This document shows, one piece after another, positions 11,685 to 56,855 of a stretch of 64,000 nt of DNA. Source of the stretch: Escherichia phage AV118; the sequence record OR352948.1, one strand, 5' to 3'. The notes below the pieces were generated by a model. The model made no database searches, had not been told where the DNA came from, and saw nothing but the letters and a program-made list of their open reading frames with translations. How positions within the stretch are numbered: position 1 is the stretch's first letter; each line of letters begins with the position of its first letter. The translations under genes were made by a program, and so were the position numbers.

Positions 11685-13522
11685 TATCCTAGCATCCAAT
11701 CTTTACGGAGTTCAGGGTCGTTACCCATGAGCATTTCAAATAGTTCTTTCCAATTTTCAGGAAGTTTAACTACGTCGTACACAGGGTTTTGAATCATTTC
11801 TTTATATTCATCCCGCTGAAGTGAGCCCAATCCCTTGATGTATCGAATACTATGCTTAGGCAGTGTATCTTTAACTTCTTCATACTCAGCTACAGTATAA
11901 AACCATTTTTGAGTTTTGCCAATTTGTGCAATAATTACAGGCGTTTTAACAAAGCGAATACGTCCTTGTTCAAACAATTCAGGCCAATTACTAAAGAAAG
12001 CAAGCAAAGCCGGATAAATACTTCCAAGGCCGTCATGATCGGCATCGGTCATAATTGCAATATTACGGTAGTTCGTATTCTCTGCCTTTTCACCAAGAAT
12101 AAGACCCGTGATAGCACAGATATCAAAGAGCTCTTTGTTCTTCATCATATCGACATATGACATACCCCAGCTATTCATCACCTTACCACGTAATGGGAAT
12201 CCGCCGTGTAGTTCACGGTCACGAACATCAATGAGATAACCAATTGCCGAATCACCTTCTGTTAAAAACAATGTCGTATCTGCATCTTTACCACATTGGT
12301 TAGCTTTAATATGCTTATGAACCTTAGCTTTAGTTGCCTTTTTAGCTGCTTTAGTTTCTGCAGCCTTTTCTGCTGCCAATTTACGAGCTAATGCGGCTTC
12401 AATTATAGGCATTAAAACTGCTTCAGAATTCAAAATATTTTTTGCCAATTTTTTTGTATCTAATTTAATATGCGTCCGAATTTCGCCATAAGGACTTGTT
12501 AAACGCTCTTTGGTTTGGGAATCAAAACGAAGGTTCTTCATTCCACGAACGAACATTAAGAGAGTGAGACATTCCTTGATGCGCGCTTTAGTCACGTCGA
12601 TTTTATATTTGCGTTTAATAGCCGGAATTAATTCTTCGCAAATGTCGTCCATCACACATTCAATGTGATGACCACCGTTTTTGGTATGGATGTTATTCAC
12701 ATAAGTTAAATGACGGAAGCCATCTGGTGACCGTCCAATGGCAATAGAGCATCCGTCTTGTTCTTGAATGATGGTCTCTTCATCAAATTGTTTAGCAAAC
12801 TTCTTAAAGTTACCTTGAATCTTTTTGCCATTAAATTTAAATTCAATACCAGGATAAACGACCGCCAATGTTTGGAGCCGGTCTATAGTAATATCTTGGT
12901 ATATTTTTTCAAATTGATTCATTTCAAAATGTGAGAAATCAGGAATAAACTCGACCTTAGTACCGTTGTTTTTAGACGGCTTAGATTTCCAAGAAATATT
13001 ATCAGCGTTATTAGAACAATTAACGGTCAATTCATTTTTACCATCTGAAGTAGTGCCAACAAAAGAGACAGAAAAAATATTTGTTAATGAAGAACCGACA
13101 CCGTTTTGTCCACCCGTAACACGTTCTTTGTCGTCACCAAAGTTGCCACCGGCTTTTGTACGTGTCCACGCCGCAACTGGTCCTGGAATTTCTTCTCCTT
13201 CAGGAGTAATAACTGTTTCTTGAGGAATACCTCGACCATTATCTTCAACAGTCACTTTATTAGAATTTAAATCAATACTAACGGAAATTTTATTAGCATA
13301 TTTGAAATTGGTTCGAATAGCTTCGTCTACTGAGTTGTCAATAATTTCATCAATTAATTTGAGAACACCTGCAACATATTTAACCTTTTTAAATTCACCG
13401 AATAGGAAACGTTCTTGTTCTTCATTGGCAACACTTCCAATATACATGCCAGGACGCTTCAAACAATGCTCTTTATCAGATAGCATTTCAATTTTATTAT
13501 CAATCATTAGATTTTCTCTCAA
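11684..13522 (-). CDS. 39: DNA topoisomerase II large subunit gp39 (GyrB-like ATPase + TOPRIM; contiguous 39+60 equivalent, 612 aa)
   Basis: GHKL ATPase and TOPRIM motifs (PGMYIG, EDNGRGIP, LTEGDSA, DADHDG). Confidence 0.9.
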   Translation of the reverse strand: MRENLMIDNKIEMLSDKEHCLKRPGMYIGSVANEEQERFLFGEFKKVKYVAGVLKLIDEIIDNSVDEAIRTNFKYANKISVSIDLNSNKVTVEDNGRGIPQETVITPEGEEIPGPVAAWTRTKAGGNFGDDKERVTGGQNGVGSSLTNIFSVSFVGTTSDGKNELTVNCSNNADNISWKSKPSKNNGTKVEFIPDFSHFEMNQFEKIYQDITIDRLQTLAVVYPGIEFKFNGKKIQGNFKKFAKQFDEETIIQEQDGCSIAIGRSPDGFRHLTYVNNIHTKNGGHHIECVMDDICEELIPAIKRKYKIDVTKARIKECLTLLMFVRGMKNLRFDSQTKERLTSPYGEIRTHIKLDTKKLAKNILNSEAVLMPIIEAALARKLAAEKAAETKAAKKATKAKVHKHIKANQCGKDADTTLFLTEGDSAIGYLIDVRDRELHGGFPLRGKVMNSWGMSYVDMMKNKELFDICAITGLILGEKAENTNYRNIAIMTDADHDGLGSIYPALLAFFSNWPELFEQGRIRFVKTPVIIAQIGKTQKWFYTVAEYEEVKDTLPKHSIRYIKGLGSLQRDEYKEMIQNPVYDVVKLPENWKELFEMLMGNDPELRKDWMLG

Positions 13523-23104: not shown

Positions 23105-23341
23105 TTAACCACTTACTGATGTAGGGGTAAACATTGCAGCGTTCTTAGTTTTCCAAGTTGCTGCATCAGAAACGACATCAGAATAAGCTGCCTTTTCTGA
23201 CGGAAAGATTTGGTAATGAGAATCTGCAATCCGATGTTCGTTTGAATAAATCTCAAACGGTACAGAAACTTCCATACCTTTGACTTCTTTGCCTTCACCA
23301 GCCGGACGTGTAAAGGTTTTGATATTAACGTAACCACCCAT
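23105..23341 (-). CDS. soc: Small outer capsid protein Soc (78 aa)
   Basis: GYVNIKTF...HYQIFPSEKAAYS matches T4 Soc pattern; AAAGGAG Shine-Dalgarno; late promoter upstream. Confidence 0.85.
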   Translation of the reverse strand: MGGYVNIKTFTRPAGEGKEVKGMEVSVPFEIYSNEHRIADSHYQIFPSEKAAYSDVVSDAATWKTKNAAMFTPTSVSG

Positions 23342-23372
23342 AATTAACTCCTTTGTTGTTTAATTACAGGTG

Positions 23373-23380
23373 TATTTATA
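23373..23380 (-). promoter_or_regulatory. T4 late promoter TATAAATA upstream of soc
   Basis: Exact TATAAATA on minus strand about 30 nt upstream of soc ATG. Confidence 0.5.
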
Positions 23381-23386
23381 ACTTAA

Positions 23387-23908
23387 TCAGTAACCATTAT
23401 CCTGACGTTCAAAGTTGTGTTGGTTTTTCAAGTAGTAAAGTTTAAAGATTTCTTCAGCGGAAAGACCCAAACCTTGGAACATATTCAGAACAAAGTGGAG
23501 AATATCAATCATCTCGAATTTAATTTCAAGCTGGTCTTCAGGAGACAGTTCATCGATACGACGATTACGATATTCAGCATGTTGTGCTTTCCATGGCTTC
23601 CACACAGAGCTGGCAGCTTTTTCACCGTTGGACATACCACCGAGTGAAGTCAGCAGTTCACGGAATTCATCATCAATATAATCTTTCTGATTACGCAGCC
23701 AATCAACAACATCACCGGCAGTAGCCAATTCATCAGGATGTTTGTTATGTTCAGGCTTGTCATTTGCCAGACGAACCTGTAAAGATTTCTGCATATCAAG
23801 CATTACCTGCAGTGGGTCTTTATCTTCGTGAATCAGAGCATTAAAATAAGCTTCTTCTGCTTTATCAACACCAGAAATAAGTTGTGAACATTCGTTAAAG
23901 TGTGCCAT
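23387..23908 (-). CDS. 56: dCTP pyrophosphatase gp56 (MazG-like dCTPase/dUTPase, 173 aa from ATG at 23908)
   Basis: MAHFNEC N-terminus and overall pattern of T4 gp56; position between soc and 61. Confidence 0.7.
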   Translation of the reverse strand: MAHFNECSQLISGVDKAEEAYFNALIHEDKDPLQVMLDMQKSLQVRLANDKPEHNKHPDELATAGDVVDWLRNQKDYIDDEFRELLTSLGGMSNGEKAASSVWKPWKAQHAEYRNRRIDELSPEDQLEIKFEMIDILHFVLNMFQGLGLSAEEIFKLYYLKNQHNFERQDNGY

Positions 23909-23997
23909 TATTTTTCCTTTCAATTCAGTATAAGAGAGTTAATTCTAACATTAATTTTATAAAGCGTAATAAATAATAAGGTAACTAAGGAGATATT

Positions 23998-24195
23998 ATG
24001 TTTAAACTTCCATCGTTAATCAACGCTATTAAAGGCAATAAAAAGAAAACTGCTATCGCTGCAATAGTTGTAGGTGGCATTATTTCATGGAACTTCGGGA
24101 TTGCACCATTGTTAGTTGCCAATGGTATTATAGTTCCTTCTGTTCCATTGGATACTGTAGTTGATTTGGCCTTTGCTATTATAGGGCTTGTTTAA
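23998..24195 (+). CDS. Small membrane protein (65 aa); only convincing plus-strand gene in window
   Basis: Strong Shine-Dalgarno TAAGGAG 7 nt upstream of ATG; fills the 268-bp gap between genes 56 and 61; hydrophobic; AATAAATA late-promoter-like motif upstream. Confidence 0.5.
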   Translation: MFKLPSLINAIKGNKKKTAIAAIVVGGIISWNFGIAPLLVANGIIVPSVPLDTVVDLAFAIIGLV

Positions 24196-25214
24196 ATCTT
24201 CGAATAACGAGATAATCTCATTTTAGCATGCAACCCACTTGAAATATTCTGTTTCATATATTCTAAAATTTCTTGTGGTGTTGCATTTTCTTTCATTACC
24301 ATATCATTCACATCCTTTGATCTCCATGGAGCTCGGTCCCAGAACATGACACGTTCGCCTGCATCAACTAATCGCTTCATGCGAGCTATAGTATCCGGAT
24401 GCCTAGGTTCATTATCCATTACCCATACCCGACGTTCTTTAAATGGTACCACATCTAAATCTATCGAGCCGCCTGTAATAGCGATTGCATTGGGTATGAA
24501 TAAACTATCAATAGGGCCTTCCATTACCCAGACGTCCCCTTCCTTAACACGTTCAACACCATAAATTTTTGTTGCAGACTCAAACGCTTTAATAGTGATA
24601 TATTTCTGAGGAGCATCTTTACGAAGTGCACGTCCTTGGAATGACTCGGCCTTCCCATCTTTATTAAAAATAGGAATAACTAAACGTGGTTCGGGAATCT
24701 CTTTCTTATACGTACCAGGTTGAATCTTGTTGACCAATTTGGGCCATTCTAATGTGAACCATAATCTGTTCCATGATTCTTTAGGAATACACCGAGACTT
24801 AACATATTTCACAATAGGATGCTCTTCAGGCAACTTGTCTAGACGAGAACAAGACGGCAAAGAATTTATAGTCTTTTTCTCCGGTTCTGGTTTATGTTCA
24901 GGAACCTTTTCAATCTTTGGTTCCATTCTAGCTTTTTCTTTACGAACTTCCATTAGATATTCGCGATAAAGCTCTTCATCATACTCTTTTAAGTATCCGG
25001 AAATTGTATTGTGGTATTGACAGTTATAGCAATGTACATTACCAGGAGTACCGCCATAATACCAACCGCGAGCTTTCATTGCATCTGTCTGAGAGTCGCC
25101 ACAAACTGGACATCGAAATGTTAATTTAAATGTGCTTGAATTATTGATTTGTCTAAAACGAGGTAGGTGAGAAAACGCACGATAAGCAAATTCATTATCT
25201 ATCCATTCAGCCAT
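24192..25214 (-). CDS. 61: DNA primase gp61 (340 aa)
   Basis: N-terminal zinc-binding CPVCGDS...CYNC, TOPRIM core; size as T4 gp61. Confidence 0.85.
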   Translation of the reverse strand: MAEWIDNEFAYRAFSHLPRFRQINNSSTFKLTFRCPVCGDSQTDAMKARGWYYGGTPGNVHCYNCQYHNTISGYLKEYDEELYREYLMEVRKEKARMEPKIEKVPEHKPEPEKKTINSLPSCSRLDKLPEEHPIVKYVKSRCIPKESWNRLWFTLEWPKLVNKIQPGTYKKEIPEPRLVIPIFNKDGKAESFQGRALRKDAPQKYITIKAFESATKIYGVERVKEGDVWVMEGPIDSLFIPNAIAITGGSIDLDVVPFKERRVWVMDNEPRHPDTIARMKRLVDAGERVMFWDRAPWRSKDVNDMVMKENATPQEILEYMKQNISSGLHAKMRLSRYSKI

Positions 25215-28719: not shown

Positions 28720-30162
28720 TTAAAATTTTAACTCATTGGCTAAGCTATCTAGGTCAGCACGTGTTGCTTTGGCTTTACCTACGCGTTCCGTACGATTCAC
28801 CTCTGCCTGACGCATCTGAGCACCTGCGTTTTCATTTACTGTGTTAGGTGTGTTCATGCCTTCTTGCTCAATCTCAACCCATTTCTGATTGCCTTTACGT
28901 ACACCCATCAGGAATTTATTCCACTTATTCTTATCGCCGTATCGTGATTTGATTTGTTTGATAAGTTGTTGTTCAGCTTGGGCAAGTTCTTCGGTTTCAA
29001 TTACAGCCAACATGAAATCTGCCGTTGCTGGTAAACCTGCTGATTCTGCGATATCACTCATGTTCATGTCTGAAGCATCCCATGCTGCACGTCCTACTTG
29101 AGCTGCAGTCCATAGAACTGTTTCAGATTCTACTGCTAATGCACGAAGTTCTTCTGCGATAGCTTTAACTAATGTGTAGCTATTTTCAGTGTAAACTCTG
29201 ATACGACAAGACCCACAAATACCTAAGTAATCAACCATGATTACAGATGGCACAAAGTTCTTCTTAAGTTTTAACTCATTAAGCAATGCACGGAATGTAT
29301 TAGCATTAGCTCCGCCAGTAGGATACTGTTTAACTACTAAACGTCCTAATGTTGTTTTTGAACGCCATTTTTCCATCTTGGCTTTATATTCAGCATAAGA
29401 TACGTTACCATCATCGATATCATCGAGTGATACGTCAAGCATGTTTGCATCTATACGCTTAGCACAAACTTCTTCAGCCATTTCCATGGAAATATAAAGA
29501 ACATTATGACCTGTTTGAAGATAATCTGCAGCAAGTGAACAAAGGCCTAAAGATTTACCGACGTTAACACCAGCCATTAAAACGTTTAGTGTACCTGTTT
29601 CTGCGCCGCCTTTGGTGATTTTATTCAAAATGTTTAATTTGAACGGGACCTTACGTGCTTTATTTAGATAAGAAAGCCAGCGTGCTTCGTAGTCTTCCAT
29701 CCAGTCATGTCCAACATAACTATCGAACGAAATTGAAAGTGCTTGACGCATAATATCAGGAATAGCTCCTACGTCAGGCATTTTCTTGTTACGTTGTTCT
29801 GGAGGTAGTTCAGCATTAGACTGAATCTCAATGATTTTGGATGTAGCATTATACATCGCTTTTTGCTGGACATATTTCTCAGTTTCTTTAACCAACCATT
29901 CATGGTCTTCAGGAGTATCAGCCAATTTTTCAATTAGGTCTGAAGTTCCTTTATATTCGGCTTCAGTTAAAGAACTGTTATCTAAAGCCACCTTTAACGC
30001 ATTGATAGATGGCATTGCATTATATTCGTTAACGTGGCTCTTTATAATTTTAAAGACATTTTTTGCCGGTCCACGCTCAAAATACTCAGAATCCATATAA
30101 GGCCAGACCTTAGAAAAATAAGCCTGGTCATATACGAGATGAGACAAAATAATTTCTACCAC
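28720..30162 (-). CDS. 41: Replicative DNA helicase gp41 (DnaB-like, 480 aa; GTG start)
   Basis: Walker A GVNVGKS, DnaB-family motifs; AAGGAG Shine-Dalgarno. Confidence 0.9.
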   Translation of the reverse strand: MVEIILSHLVYDQAYFSKVWPYMDSEYFERGPAKNVFKIIKSHVNEYNAMPSINALKVALDNSSLTEAEYKGTSDLIEKLADTPEDHEWLVKETEKYVQQKAMYNATSKIIEIQSNAELPPEQRNKKMPDVGAIPDIMRQALSISFDSYVGHDWMEDYEARWLSYLNKARKVPFKLNILNKITKGGAETGTLNVLMAGVNVGKSLGLCSLAADYLQTGHNVLYISMEMAEEVCAKRIDANMLDVSLDDIDDGNVSYAEYKAKMEKWRSKTTLGRLVVKQYPTGGANANTFRALLNELKLKKNFVPSVIMVDYLGICGSCRIRVYTENSYTLVKAIAEELRALAVESETVLWTAAQVGRAAWDASDMNMSDIAESAGLPATADFMLAVIETEELAQAEQQLIKQIKSRYGDKNKWNKFLMGVRKGNQKWVEIEQEGMNTPNTVNENAGAQMRQAEVNRTERVGKAKATRADLDSLANELKF

Positions 30163-56813: not shown

Positions 56814-56855
56814 AATAAAACCCTTACCTTAAATAGATAAGGGTATTTATTATTT

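What the first reader, a model, noticed from the sequence alone, without database searches (positions are those of the whole stretch)
23998..24195. Lone plus-strand gene: 65-aa membrane protein convergent with genes 56 and 61
A 268-bp gap in an otherwise minus-strand array contains a plus-strand ORF with a strong Shine-Dalgarno (TAAGGAG), a late-promoter-like AATAAATA upstream, and a hydrophobic product. Its stop overlaps the gp61 stop (convergent). Small phage membrane proteins in such positions often mediate superinfection exclusion, lysis control or anti-defence.
Basis: seen in the sequence. Interest (0 to 1): 0.45.

Follow-up and report, generated by a model that had tools for sequence, protein, structure and literature searches.

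The report
Conserved late T-even membrane protein gene
The lone plus-strand ORF is a real, strongly conserved gene of T4-like phages that very probably makes a small inner-membrane protein late in infection; it is already catalogued as a hypothetical protein (RB69ORF029w, phrog_2024), its function is unknown, and its T4 counterpart is missing from the T4 reference annotation.

Summary
Window 23998..24195(+) is a 65-codon ORF with TAAGGAG 5 nt before the ATG and AATAAATA 22 nt upstream. Its stop overlaps the gene 61 stop. It is the only plus-strand CDS among 69 in 42 kb. It is convergent with gene 61 but divergent from gene 56, not convergent with both.

The window is a Mosigvirus, and the ORF is RB69ORF029w (97% identical), family phrog_2024, function unknown. 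It is under purifying selection: dN/dS is about 0.1-0.3 with synonymous sites saturated between genera.

Two subfamilies occupy the same slot against the 3' end of gene 61 in at least eight T-even genera. The gene is absent from RB49. T4 has a 66-aa homologue with no CDS in NC_000866.

Every lineage has NATAAATA 14-22 nt before the ATG. ATAAATA is 7.6-fold depleted in the window, and two other copies precede the soc and gene 49 homologues, late genes in T4. So a gp55-type late promoter is the best reading.

The product is predicted to be N-in/C-out with one TM helix holding invariant W-N and P.

No search gave a functional relative. A lysis or lysis-inhibition role is a guess (about 0.25). This is an ordinary, already catalogued gene; interest is modest.

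The parts
23998..24195 (+). CDS of 65 aa plus stop; orthologue of RB69ORF029w, family phrog_2024
   Evidence: ORF call. phrog_2024 E 1.4e-26 over the full length. 97% identical to RB69 NP_861719. dN/dS 0.08-0.34 in all pairs. It is the only frame open in 14 of 14 loci.
23986..23992 (+). Shine-Dalgarno sequence TAAGGAG, 5-nt spacer to the ATG
   Evidence: Read from the sequence. An (A)GGAGG-type site at the same distance is present in T4, CJ20, JS98, Marfa, PM2, Q7622 and SEA1.
23968..23975 (+). Putative gp55-dependent late promoter AATAAATA (positions -13 to -6); inferred transcription start near 23981, giving a 17-nt leader
   Evidence: NATAAATA lies 14-22 nt upstream of the ATG in every lineage, and is perfect TATAAATA in Marfa and Q7622. 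ATAAATA is 7.6-fold depleted in the window, and two of the other three copies precede the soc and gene 49 homologues. A at -13 is the commonest T4 variant (PMC2988020). The start site is inferred, not measured.
24049..24120 (+). Codons 18-41: the single predicted transmembrane helix, carrying invariant W31, N32 and P37
   Evidence: Hydropathy. TMHMM predicted residues 21-41 for RB69ORF029w in Nolan et al. 2006. The AF2 model has a helix at 15-41, mean pLDDT 81.6. Invariant columns are in alignment A2.
23942..23969 (-). Predicted MotA-dependent middle promoter of gene 56: MotA box ttaCGCTTTA (23969-23960), 12-nt spacer, -10 TAGAAT (23947-23942). It lies back-to-back with the late promoter.
   Evidence: Minus-strand sequence. 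Consensus (a/t)3TGCTTtA, 12+/-1 bp, TAtaaT (PMC2988021). It coincides with Pm:16038 predicted for RB69 by Nolan et al.. This is context, not part of the gene.
24192..25214 (-). Gene 61 (DNA primase); its stop overlaps the ORF's stop by 4 nt
   Evidence: (phrog_47, E 1e-101). The convergent 3' overlap or abutment is conserved in T4, JS98, Marfa, PM2, Q7622 and SEA1.
23387..23908 (-). Gene 56 (dCTPase), divergent neighbour
   Evidence: (phrog_173, E 1.6e-45).

Best explanation
This is a genuine protein-coding gene of the T-even phages (RB69ORF029w family, phrog_2024).

Shown:
- The plus-strand frame is under purifying selection.
- It is kept intact, with its ribosome-binding site, in at least eight genera.
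- It always lies on the strand opposite the early genes, pressed against the 3' end of the primase gene 61.

Inferred expression: it is silent early. It is transcribed after replication begins by gp55/gp33/gp45-modified RNA polymerase from AATAAATA (23968-23975), starting near 23981. The result is a short mRNA with a 17-nt leader carrying TAAGGAG. No intrinsic terminator follows, so the transcript probably runs antisense into gene 61, which by then is no longer being expressed.

Inferred product: the 65-aa protein inserts in the inner membrane with one transmembrane helix (about residues 18-41).
- The lysine-rich N-terminal amphipathic helix is in the cytoplasm (flank charge +5/0).
- A proline-containing turn and a short acidic amphipathic helix (flank charge 0/-2) are on the periplasmic side.

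Inferred mode of action: the only invariant residues are W31-N32 and P37 inside the helix, P47 in the turn that follows it, and G63 near the C-terminus. So it most likely works by helix-helix packing inside the membrane, with itself or with another membrane protein, not as an enzyme.

Speculative role: my best guess for the process is late envelope events, that is, tuning of holin-dependent lysis or lysis inhibition.

Sub-probabilities:
- real translated gene: 0.93
- late transcription: 0.75
- bitopic N-in membrane protein: 0.8
- lysis or lysis-inhibition role: about 0.25
For: Coding:
- Window versus ESCO47 has 31.5 synonymous against 17.5 non-synonymous differences, dN/dS 0.09.
- Between genera, dS is saturated while the protein stays 43-54% identical.
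- Variable columns by codon position are 45/20/59.
- The + frame has 0 stops in 14 of 14 loci.
- 685 of 692 tblastn hits are full length.

Family and synteny:
- phrog_2024 matches both subfamilies, at E 1.4e-26 and 8e-20.
- The slot and orientation are the same in Tequatrovirus, Mosigvirus, Gaprivervirus, Dhakavirus, Marfavirus, Mosugukvirus, Kanagawavirus and Gelderlandvirus.
- The gene is absent in RB49, where genes 56 and 61 abut.

Late promoter:
- The motif is conserved at 14-22 nt from the ATG even though the upstream neighbours differ: gene 56, dam, or a paralogue.
- ATAAATA occurs 4 times against 30.4 expected, and the copies at the soc and gene 49 homologues serve as internal positive controls.
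- The A(-13) variant is documented.
- No sigma-70-like promoter was found on the + strand.

Membrane topology:
- Hydropathy supports one TM helix.
- Flank charges are net positive on the N side and neutral or negative on the C side in 9 of 9 lineages.
- TMHMM predicted residues 21-41 and SignalP was negative in Nolan et al..
- The AF2 model has helices at 3-11, 15-41 and 51-62.
- Invariant residues are W31, N32, P37, P47 and G63.
Against: - No transcript, ribosome-footprint or peptide evidence could be consulted.
- Nolan et al. 2006 did not list a late promoter at this site in RB69. No coordinate beginning 1602 or 1603 was found in their late-promoter table.
- SEA1 has only TATTAAATA.
- In the window the motif abuts the MotA box of the gene 56 promoter, so part of its conservation within Mosigvirus could serve that promoter.
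- The summed Hessa values for the TM segment are marginal in the window protein, +2.4 to +3.1 kcal/mol.
- For the lysis guess there is no positive evidence. The gene is not next to e, t, rI or the spanin genes. Its C-terminus is hydrophobic, not charged. Its distribution (about 800 records) does not match that of rI (1115 records).
Confidence: 0.6

Rival explanations
1. Superinfection exclusion or immunity protein. This is the first reader's leading idea: a membrane protein that blocks DNA entry or cell-wall penetration by later-arriving phages, as Imm and Sp do.
For: The product is a predicted inner-membrane protein. The family is confined to enterobacterial T-evens and is absent from RB49, whose 56-to-41 region also shows no sp or imm annotation. 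The gene lies about 2-3 kb from sp and the imm-like genes.
Against: Only a late-type promoter is present, with no sigma-70-like or MotA-type promoter on the + strand. Exclusion in T4 is set up within minutes by early genes (my own knowledge of T4). There is no sequence or fold similarity to Imm or Sp or any other characterised protein.
Confidence: 0.12
2. Holin- or pinholin-like hole former, as one submitter's annotation ('Holin' for the OE5505 homologue) suggests.
For: It is small, probably late, and membrane-embedded with polar residues in the TM helix: N32, plus an Asp in type B. One database name is 'Holin'.
Against: The C-terminus is hydrophobic and not charged. The gene is not adjacent to an endolysin gene. 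In T4, holin T is the single holin and t mutants fail to lyse (my own knowledge of T4). The 'Holin' label is an unreviewed annotation found on one member among hundreds named 'hypothetical'.
Confidence: 0.06
3. Anti-defence or other late membrane role: for example, neutralising a membrane-acting abortive-infection effector triggered by late gene products, or helping membrane-associated prohead assembly.
For: Late timing and membrane location are compatible. The family is narrow and fast-evolving, with two subfamilies and a tandem pair in ESCO47. This resembles accessory, host-interaction genes.
Against: There is no direct evidence. There are no PADLOC or other hits. The fixed position next to a core replication gene differs from the hyperplastic regions where T-even accessory genes are usually described (my own knowledge).
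Confidence: 0.2
4. The ORF is not translated. Its conservation would then reflect DNA or RNA signals: the gene 61 terminator region, the gene 56 promoter or origin region, or a late antisense RNA against gene 61. A variant of this idea is that the true coding frame is the minus-strand frame that continues gene 61 past its stop.
For: The region lies between gene 61 and the gene 56 middle promoter. The late transcript would be antisense to gene 61 because there is no terminator. The minus frame in phase with gene 61 stays open for 68 codons in the window and shows low pN/pS, 0.10-0.32.
Against: The substitution pattern is that of a plus-strand protein. ATG plus Shine-Dalgarno is conserved at one position in all lineages. 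Subfamilies A and B keep the same hydropathy and invariant residues at 17-28% identity. The minus frame shares third-codon positions with the plus frame, so a low pN/pS there is expected. That frame's openness follows from the lack of Tyr, His and Gln in the protein, and it carries 2-5 stops in the type B loci. There is no Rfam match.
Confidence: 0.05

Closest known systems
RB69ORF029w (NP_861719) and PHROG family phrog_2024, 'unknown function'
   Same: Same gene: 97% identical, same length, same position between genes 56 and 61 on the opposite strand, and the same predicted TM helix at residues 21-41.
   Different: Nothing of substance differs. The window copy has N42 where RB69 has H, and I61 where RB69 has V.
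CDS-less 66-aa ORF of phage T4, NC_000866 17738..17938(+), between dam and gene 61
   Same: 52% identical. It has the same TTAA stop overlap with gene 61, GATAAATA 21 nt before the ATG, and AAAGGAGG as its ribosome-binding site.
   Different: Its upstream neighbour is dam, not gene 56. It has one extra residue near the N-terminus. NC_000866 lists no CDS there, and the exact protein has no NCBI accession in the cluster table.
Type B subfamily (Dhakavirus JS98, Marfa, PM2, Q7622, SEA1; upstream copy in ESCO47)
   Same: Same slot, strand, size and late-type motif, the same W-N...P...P...G skeleton, and the same PHROG.
   Different: Only 17-28% identical. There is an Asp in the TM helix and an FYQIW N-terminal helix. 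It is often unannotated.
T4 late genes embedded in the early-gene region (soc, gene 49)
   Same: A short leader is driven by (T/A)ATAAATA directly upstream of SD and ATG. In this window soc has TATAAATA at 23373-23380(-) and the gene 49 homologue has AATAAATA at 56844-56851(-).
   Different: Those two lie on the early (minus) strand. This gene is on the opposite strand and converges on gene 61.
T4 small envelope proteins Imm, Sp and RI, and holins
   Same: Small size and predicted inner-membrane location. The late timing resembles holin T and, in part, RI.
   Different: There is no sequence or fold similarity. There is no charged C-terminus, no periplasmic globular domain (only 24 residues lie outside), and the gene is not linked to lysis genes.

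Membership tests
phrog_2024 / RB69ORF029w family | Full-length match to the family profile | tested here: met
   E 1.4e-26, residues 1-65 against profile positions 1-65 of 65.
phrog_2024 / RB69ORF029w family | Position on the strand opposite the early genes, convergent with the 3' end of gene 61 | tested here: met
   Window and eight genera.
phrog_2024 / RB69ORF029w family | Invariant W-N and P in the TM helix, with P and G downstream | tested here: met
   W31, N32, P37, P47 and G63 are invariant in alignment A2.
T4-type late gene (gp55-dependent promoter) | TATAAATA-type octamer at -13 to -6, just upstream of the gene | tested here: met
   AATAAATA at 23968-23975. A(-13) is the commonest natural variant. 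The motif is conserved in all orthologues and strongly depleted elsewhere in the window.
T4-type late gene (gp55-dependent promoter) | RNA 5' end about 6 nt downstream of the motif, appearing only late and dependent on genes 55, 33 and 45 | not testable with these tools
   No transcriptome data are available. No paper found in the library covers this locus.
Holins | At least one transmembrane domain in a small, late-expressed protein | tested here: met
   One TM helix at residues 18-41. Late expression is inferred.
Holins | Hydrophilic, highly charged C-terminal tail | tested here: not met
   The C-terminal 24 residues carry 0 basic and 2 acidic residues and end in AFAIIGLV.
Holins | Gene clustered with an endolysin or other lysis genes | tested here: not met
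   The neighbours are dCTPase and primase. No lysis gene lies within 20 kb on either side.
Holins | Lethal, timed membrane hole formation | not testable with these tools
   Needs an expression experiment.
Superinfection exclusion proteins (T4 Imm / Sp type) | Homology to Imm or Sp | tested here: not met
   The only PHROG hit is phrog_2024. A full HMMER search of 1.84 billion representatives returned only family members.
Superinfection exclusion proteins (T4 Imm / Sp type) | Early expression | tested here: not met
   No sigma-70-like promoter on the + strand; only a late-type motif. This rests on sequence inference only.
SAR-domain antiholin (T4 RI type) | N-terminal weakly hydrophobic signal-anchor-release helix rich in Gly, Ala, Ser and Thr | tested here: inconclusive
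   10 of 24 TM residues are G, A, S or T in the window protein, with marginal summed Hessa values. The CJ20 orthologue has a Leu-rich, strongly hydrophobic helix.
SAR-domain antiholin (T4 RI type) | Periplasmic globular domain that binds the holin | tested here: not met
   Only about 24 residues follow the TM helix.

The most novel reading that the evidence does not exclude
Phage T4 and its close relatives carry an overlooked, conserved late gene. It is absent from the T4 reference annotation and therefore from annotation-based functional screens. Its small inner-membrane product would be an unrecognised component of the late envelope programme, for example a modulator of holin T triggering or of lysis inhibition, acting through the invariant W-N/P transmembrane motif.
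Probability: 0.2. Interest if true: 0.55.

Novelty: already known. Interest (0 to 1): 0.3.

Why it matters
The gene itself is catalogued but uncharacterised. There are two practical points.

First, the best-studied T-even phage, T4, has an intact, selected homologue with no CDS in NC_000866. Screens designed from annotated CDSs, such as the CRISPRi-ART T4 library (PMC11879866), are therefore unlikely to have covered it. Adding it to the annotation is cheap and would make it testable.

Second, it is a clean example of a late gene placed antisense inside an early-gene block. It sits back-to-back with a middle promoter and overlaps the stop of a convergent early gene, and only timing of expression keeps the two transcription programmes apart.

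If it turned out to act on lysis timing or lysis inhibition, it would add a component to a classic, still incompletely understood system. Nothing here shows that.

Tried and rejected
1. Functional homology. None of the following gave anything beyond the family itself:
- Pfam, NCBIfam and PADLOC searches.
- A PDB sequence profile search.
- Foldseek against BFVD and PDB.
- A full HMMER search of 1.84 billion representatives.
- The word-indexed protein search.
- One member is labelled 'Holin' by its submitter. I rejected this as evidence.

2. RNA element. There was no Rfam match in 23300-24800 apart from a chance snoRNA hit below threshold.

3. Minus-strand coding or read-through extension of gene 61. 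That frame is open and has low pN/pS. I rejected it because it shares wobble positions with the plus frame, its openness follows from the protein's composition, and it has 2-5 stops in the type B loci.

4. Paralogues elsewhere in the window: none found.

5. Intrinsic terminator for the late transcript. None is convincing on the + strand up to position 30000. The hairpin at 24105-24126 lies inside the ORF and has no proper T-run.

6. Plus-strand sigma-70-like promoter: none.

7. Phyletic comparison with rI as a test of the lysis-inhibition idea. rI is in 1115 records against about 800 for this family, so the comparison does not discriminate.

8. Literature. Seven full-text searches and six papers read gave nothing on this ORF or its T4 homologue. 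They were useful only for promoter consensus data and the TMHMM result.

Full report
**What is there**

The window is part of a Mosigvirus (RB69-like T-even) genome. The 2 kb around the finding is 99.9% identical to Escherichia phage AV116 and 97-99% identical to about 150 other phages.

Window 23998..24195(+) is an ATG-initiated ORF of 65 codons.
- TAAGGAG lies at 23986-23992, 5 nt before the ATG.
- AATAAATA lies at 23968-23975.
- The ORF's TAA (24193-24195) overlaps the stop of gene 61 (24192-24194 on the minus strand).

The flanking genes are:
- gene 56, dCTPase, 23387..23908(-); phrog_173, E 1.6e-45
- gene 61, primase, 24192..25214(-); phrog_47, E 1e-101

In AV116 this is the only plus-strand CDS among 69 in 42 kb.

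Two details of the finding need correction:
- The ORF is divergent from gene 56 and convergent only with gene 61.
- The 268-bp gap assumes the TTG at 23923 as the gene 56 start. The ATG at 23908 used in the annotations gives 283 bp.

**It is a real protein-coding gene**

The ORF is RB69ORF029w (NP_861719), annotated as a hypothetical protein. It matches PHROG family phrog_2024 ('unknown function') end to end at E 1.4e-26.

tblastn finds it in 692 phage records, and 685 of them cover at least 80% of the length.

Nei-Gojobori comparisons give dN/dS of 0.08-0.34 for every pair.
- Window versus ESCO47 has 31.5 synonymous and 17.5 non-synonymous differences.
- Between Mosigvirus, Tequatrovirus and Gaprivervirus, synonymous sites are saturated (pS 0.61-0.79), while the proteins remain 43-54% identical.
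- Variable alignment columns fall 45/20/59 on codon positions 1/2/3.

The plus frame is open in all 14 loci examined.

One control needed an explanation. The minus-strand frame that continues gene 61 past its stop is also open in the window, for 68 codons, and shows low pN/pS. There are three reasons to set it aside:
- That frame shares its third positions with the plus frame.
- Its openness follows from the near absence of Tyr, His and Gln in the protein.
- It carries 2-5 stops in the second subfamily.

It is therefore a by-product of the plus-strand gene. No Rfam family matches the region.

**Extent of the family**

A full HMMER search of 1.84 billion cluster representatives, using a profile of 15 members, returned six representatives. 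All are family members or fragments of them. The family therefore appears confined to T-even-type phages.

It has two subfamilies:
- Type A occurs in Mosigvirus, Tequatrovirus and Gaprivervirus.
- Type B is 17-28% identical to the window protein but matches phrog_2024 at E 8e-20. It occurs in 112 records, including Dhakavirus JS98, Klebsiella phage Marfa, Pectobacterium phage PM2, Enterobacter phage Q7622 and Salmonella phage SEA1.

In all of these the gene sits on the strand opposite the early genes, directly against the 3' end of gene 61.
- In T4, the window phage, JS98 and Marfa the stops overlap by 4 nt.
- In PM2 and Q7622 the overlap is 21-24 nt.
- In SEA1 there is a 2-nt gap.

The upstream neighbour varies: gene 56, dam, or other ORFs.

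Other observations on distribution:
- Mosigvirus ESCO47 carries type B and type A in tandem with an 8-nt overlap.
- Gaprivervirus CJ20 has type A followed by a truncated remnant of type B and a hairpin terminator.
- RB49 (Krischvirus) lacks the gene; its genes 56 and 61 are 14 nt apart.

**The T4 homologue**

T4 itself has an intact 66-aa homologue at NC_000866 17738..17938(+), between dam and gene 61.
- It has the same TTAA stop overlap with gene 61.
- Its ribosome-binding site is AAAGGAGG.
- GATAAATA lies 21 nt upstream of the ATG.

NC_000866 has no CDS there. The exact T4 protein sequence carries no NCBI accession in the cluster table, whereas its near-identical relatives are all named 'hypothetical protein'. 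The CRISPRi-ART T4 library was designed on annotated CDSs only (PMC11879866), so the homologue is unlikely to have been targeted.

**Expression**

Every lineage has NATAAATA ending 14-22 nt before the ATG, whatever lies upstream:

| Motif | Lineages |
|---|---|
| AATAAATA | window, RB69, JS98, some T4-like phages |
| GATAAATA | T4, PM2 |
| CATAAATA | CJ20, the upstream gene of the ESCO47 pair |
| TATAAATA (perfect) | Marfa, Q7622 |
| TATTAAATA (deviant) | SEA1 only |

The T4 late promoter is TATAAATA at -13 to -6.
- A at -13 is its commonest natural variant, found at 9 of 50 T4 sites (PMC2988020).
- In RB69-type phages -13 is poorly conserved, with A or T common (PMC1524935).

In this window ATAAATA occurs only 4 times on both strands, against 30.4 +/- 5.0 expected from shuffles. 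The four copies are:
- this ORF
- TATAAATA 31 nt before the soc homologue
- AATAAATA 30 nt before the gene 49 homologue
- one intragenic copy

soc and gene 49 are late-transcribed in T4 (my own knowledge of T4).

No sigma-70-like promoter is found on the plus strand.

I therefore read the motif as a gp55-dependent late promoter, with a start near 23981 and a 17-nt leader. This is inferred, not measured, and there are two caveats:
- Nolan et al. did not list a late promoter at this site in RB69.
- In the window the motif abuts a predicted MotA-dependent middle promoter for gene 56 on the other strand. That promoter is MotA box ttaCGCTTTA at 23969-23960, a 12-nt spacer, and TAGAAT at 23947-23942. 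It corresponds to their Pm:16038.

No intrinsic terminator follows the ORF within 5.8 kb. The late RNA presumably runs antisense into gene 61. Separation in time between early gene 61 transcription and late transcription of this gene would make the overlapping convergent layout workable.

**The product**

The protein is very hydrophobic (GRAVY 1.24), with a single clear transmembrane segment at about residues 18-41. Nolan et al. reported a TMHMM helix at 21-41 and no signal peptide for RB69ORF029w.

The AlphaFold2 model has mean pLDDT 81.6 and shows helices at 3-11, 15-41 and 51-62.

In all nine lineages the N-terminal flank is net positive (+5/0 in the window). The C-terminal flank is neutral to acidic (0/-2). 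By the positive-inside rule this gives N-in/C-out.

Across both subfamilies the invariant residues are M1, W31, N32, P37, P47 and G63. G43 and V49 are nearly invariant. A conserved Trp-Asn pair and a Pro inside a transmembrane helix point to specific helix-helix packing in the membrane, not catalysis. That is inference.

**Function**

Nothing characterised resembles the protein in sequence or fold.
- PHROGs, Pfam, NCBIfam and PADLOC gave nothing beyond the family.
- The PDB sequence profile search gave no hit.
- Foldseek against BFVD returned only family members. Foldseek against PDB returned nothing meaningful.

It fails two defining features of holins: a charged C-terminus and linkage to lysis genes. 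It lacks the periplasmic domain of an RI-type antiholin.

A late-only promoter also fits poorly with classical superinfection exclusion, which T4 establishes with the early genes imm and sp.

The rI distribution (1115 records) is broader than that of this family (about 800 records), so phyletic patterns do not help.

My best guess is a late-acting modulator of envelope events, that is, lysis timing or lysis inhibition, working through intramembrane contacts. I put it at about 0.25, with anti-defence or assembly roles together at about 0.2.

**Verdict**

Its functional suggestions remain untested.

The gene is already catalogued as a hypothetical protein, so novelty is low. The points worth carrying forward are:
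- the missing CDS in the T4 reference
- the late promoter conserved across genera
- the fixed overlap with the 3' end of gene 61
- the existence of two subfamilies

Noticed in passing
L002 4239-4439 (T4 NC_000866 17738..17938, + strand): T4 has an intact 66-aa homologue with GATAAATA and AAAGGAGG upstream, but NC_000866 lists no CDS between dam and gene 61. The exact protein has no NCBI accession in the cluster table.
   Followed up: yes
window 23373-23380(-), 56844-56851(-), 12014-12020(+), 23969-23975(+): The late-promoter core ATAAATA is 7.6-fold depleted in the window (4 copies against 30.4 expected). Three of the four copies sit just upstream of an SD and ATG: the soc homologue, the gene 49 homologue and this ORF. 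The copy at 12014 lies inside a 612-aa minus-strand ORF.
   Followed up: yes
window 23942-23969 (-): A good MotA-type middle promoter for gene 56 (ttaCGCTTTA, 12-nt spacer, TAGAAT) lies back-to-back with the late-promoter motif and overlaps it by 2 nt. In T4 the gene 56 transcript is annotated as the primer RNA of origin oriA, so this gap may also hold an origin promoter.
   Followed up: partly
window 23988-24191 (-): The reading frame of gene 61 stays open for 68 codons beyond its TAA stop. This is explained as a by-product of the composition of the plus-strand protein (few Tyr, His, Gln). The type B loci have 2-5 stops in that frame.
   Followed up: yes
L005 2305-2698 (Escherichia phage ESCO47): Two members of the family (type B, then type A) lie in tandem with an 8-nt overlap behind a single CATAAATA motif. 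This looks like a two-gene late operon produced by acquisition of the other subfamily.
   Followed up: partly
L004 2698-2816 (Escherichia phage CJ20): Downstream of the type A gene there is a truncated, start-less remnant of a type B gene (FYQIWKLTSKK...). It is followed by a 10-bp hairpin (AACATCATGG...CCATGATGTT) with a T-run. This is the only locus with a terminator between the convergent genes.
   Followed up: partly
P0040 (metagenome protein, 61 aa): This is a copy of the T4-type protein in which many residues are changed as if all C had been read as T (A to V, S to F or L, T to I, P to L). It is probably a bisulfite-type or deamination artefact in a public assembly.
   Followed up: no
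L014 1-1472 (Marfa) and L016 593-1393 (Q7622): Gene 56 is annotated as two separate 'nucleoside triphosphate pyrophosphohydrolase' CDS. In Marfa a 759-nt ORF lies between them. This may be a homing-endonuclease-type insertion like segF next to gene 56 in T4.
   Followed up: no
window 24105-24126 (+): A perfect 7-bp inverted repeat (ACCATTG...CAATGGT, 8-nt loop) lies inside the ORF and was flagged as terminator-like. It has no proper T-run on either strand, and its conservation was not examined.
   Followed up: no
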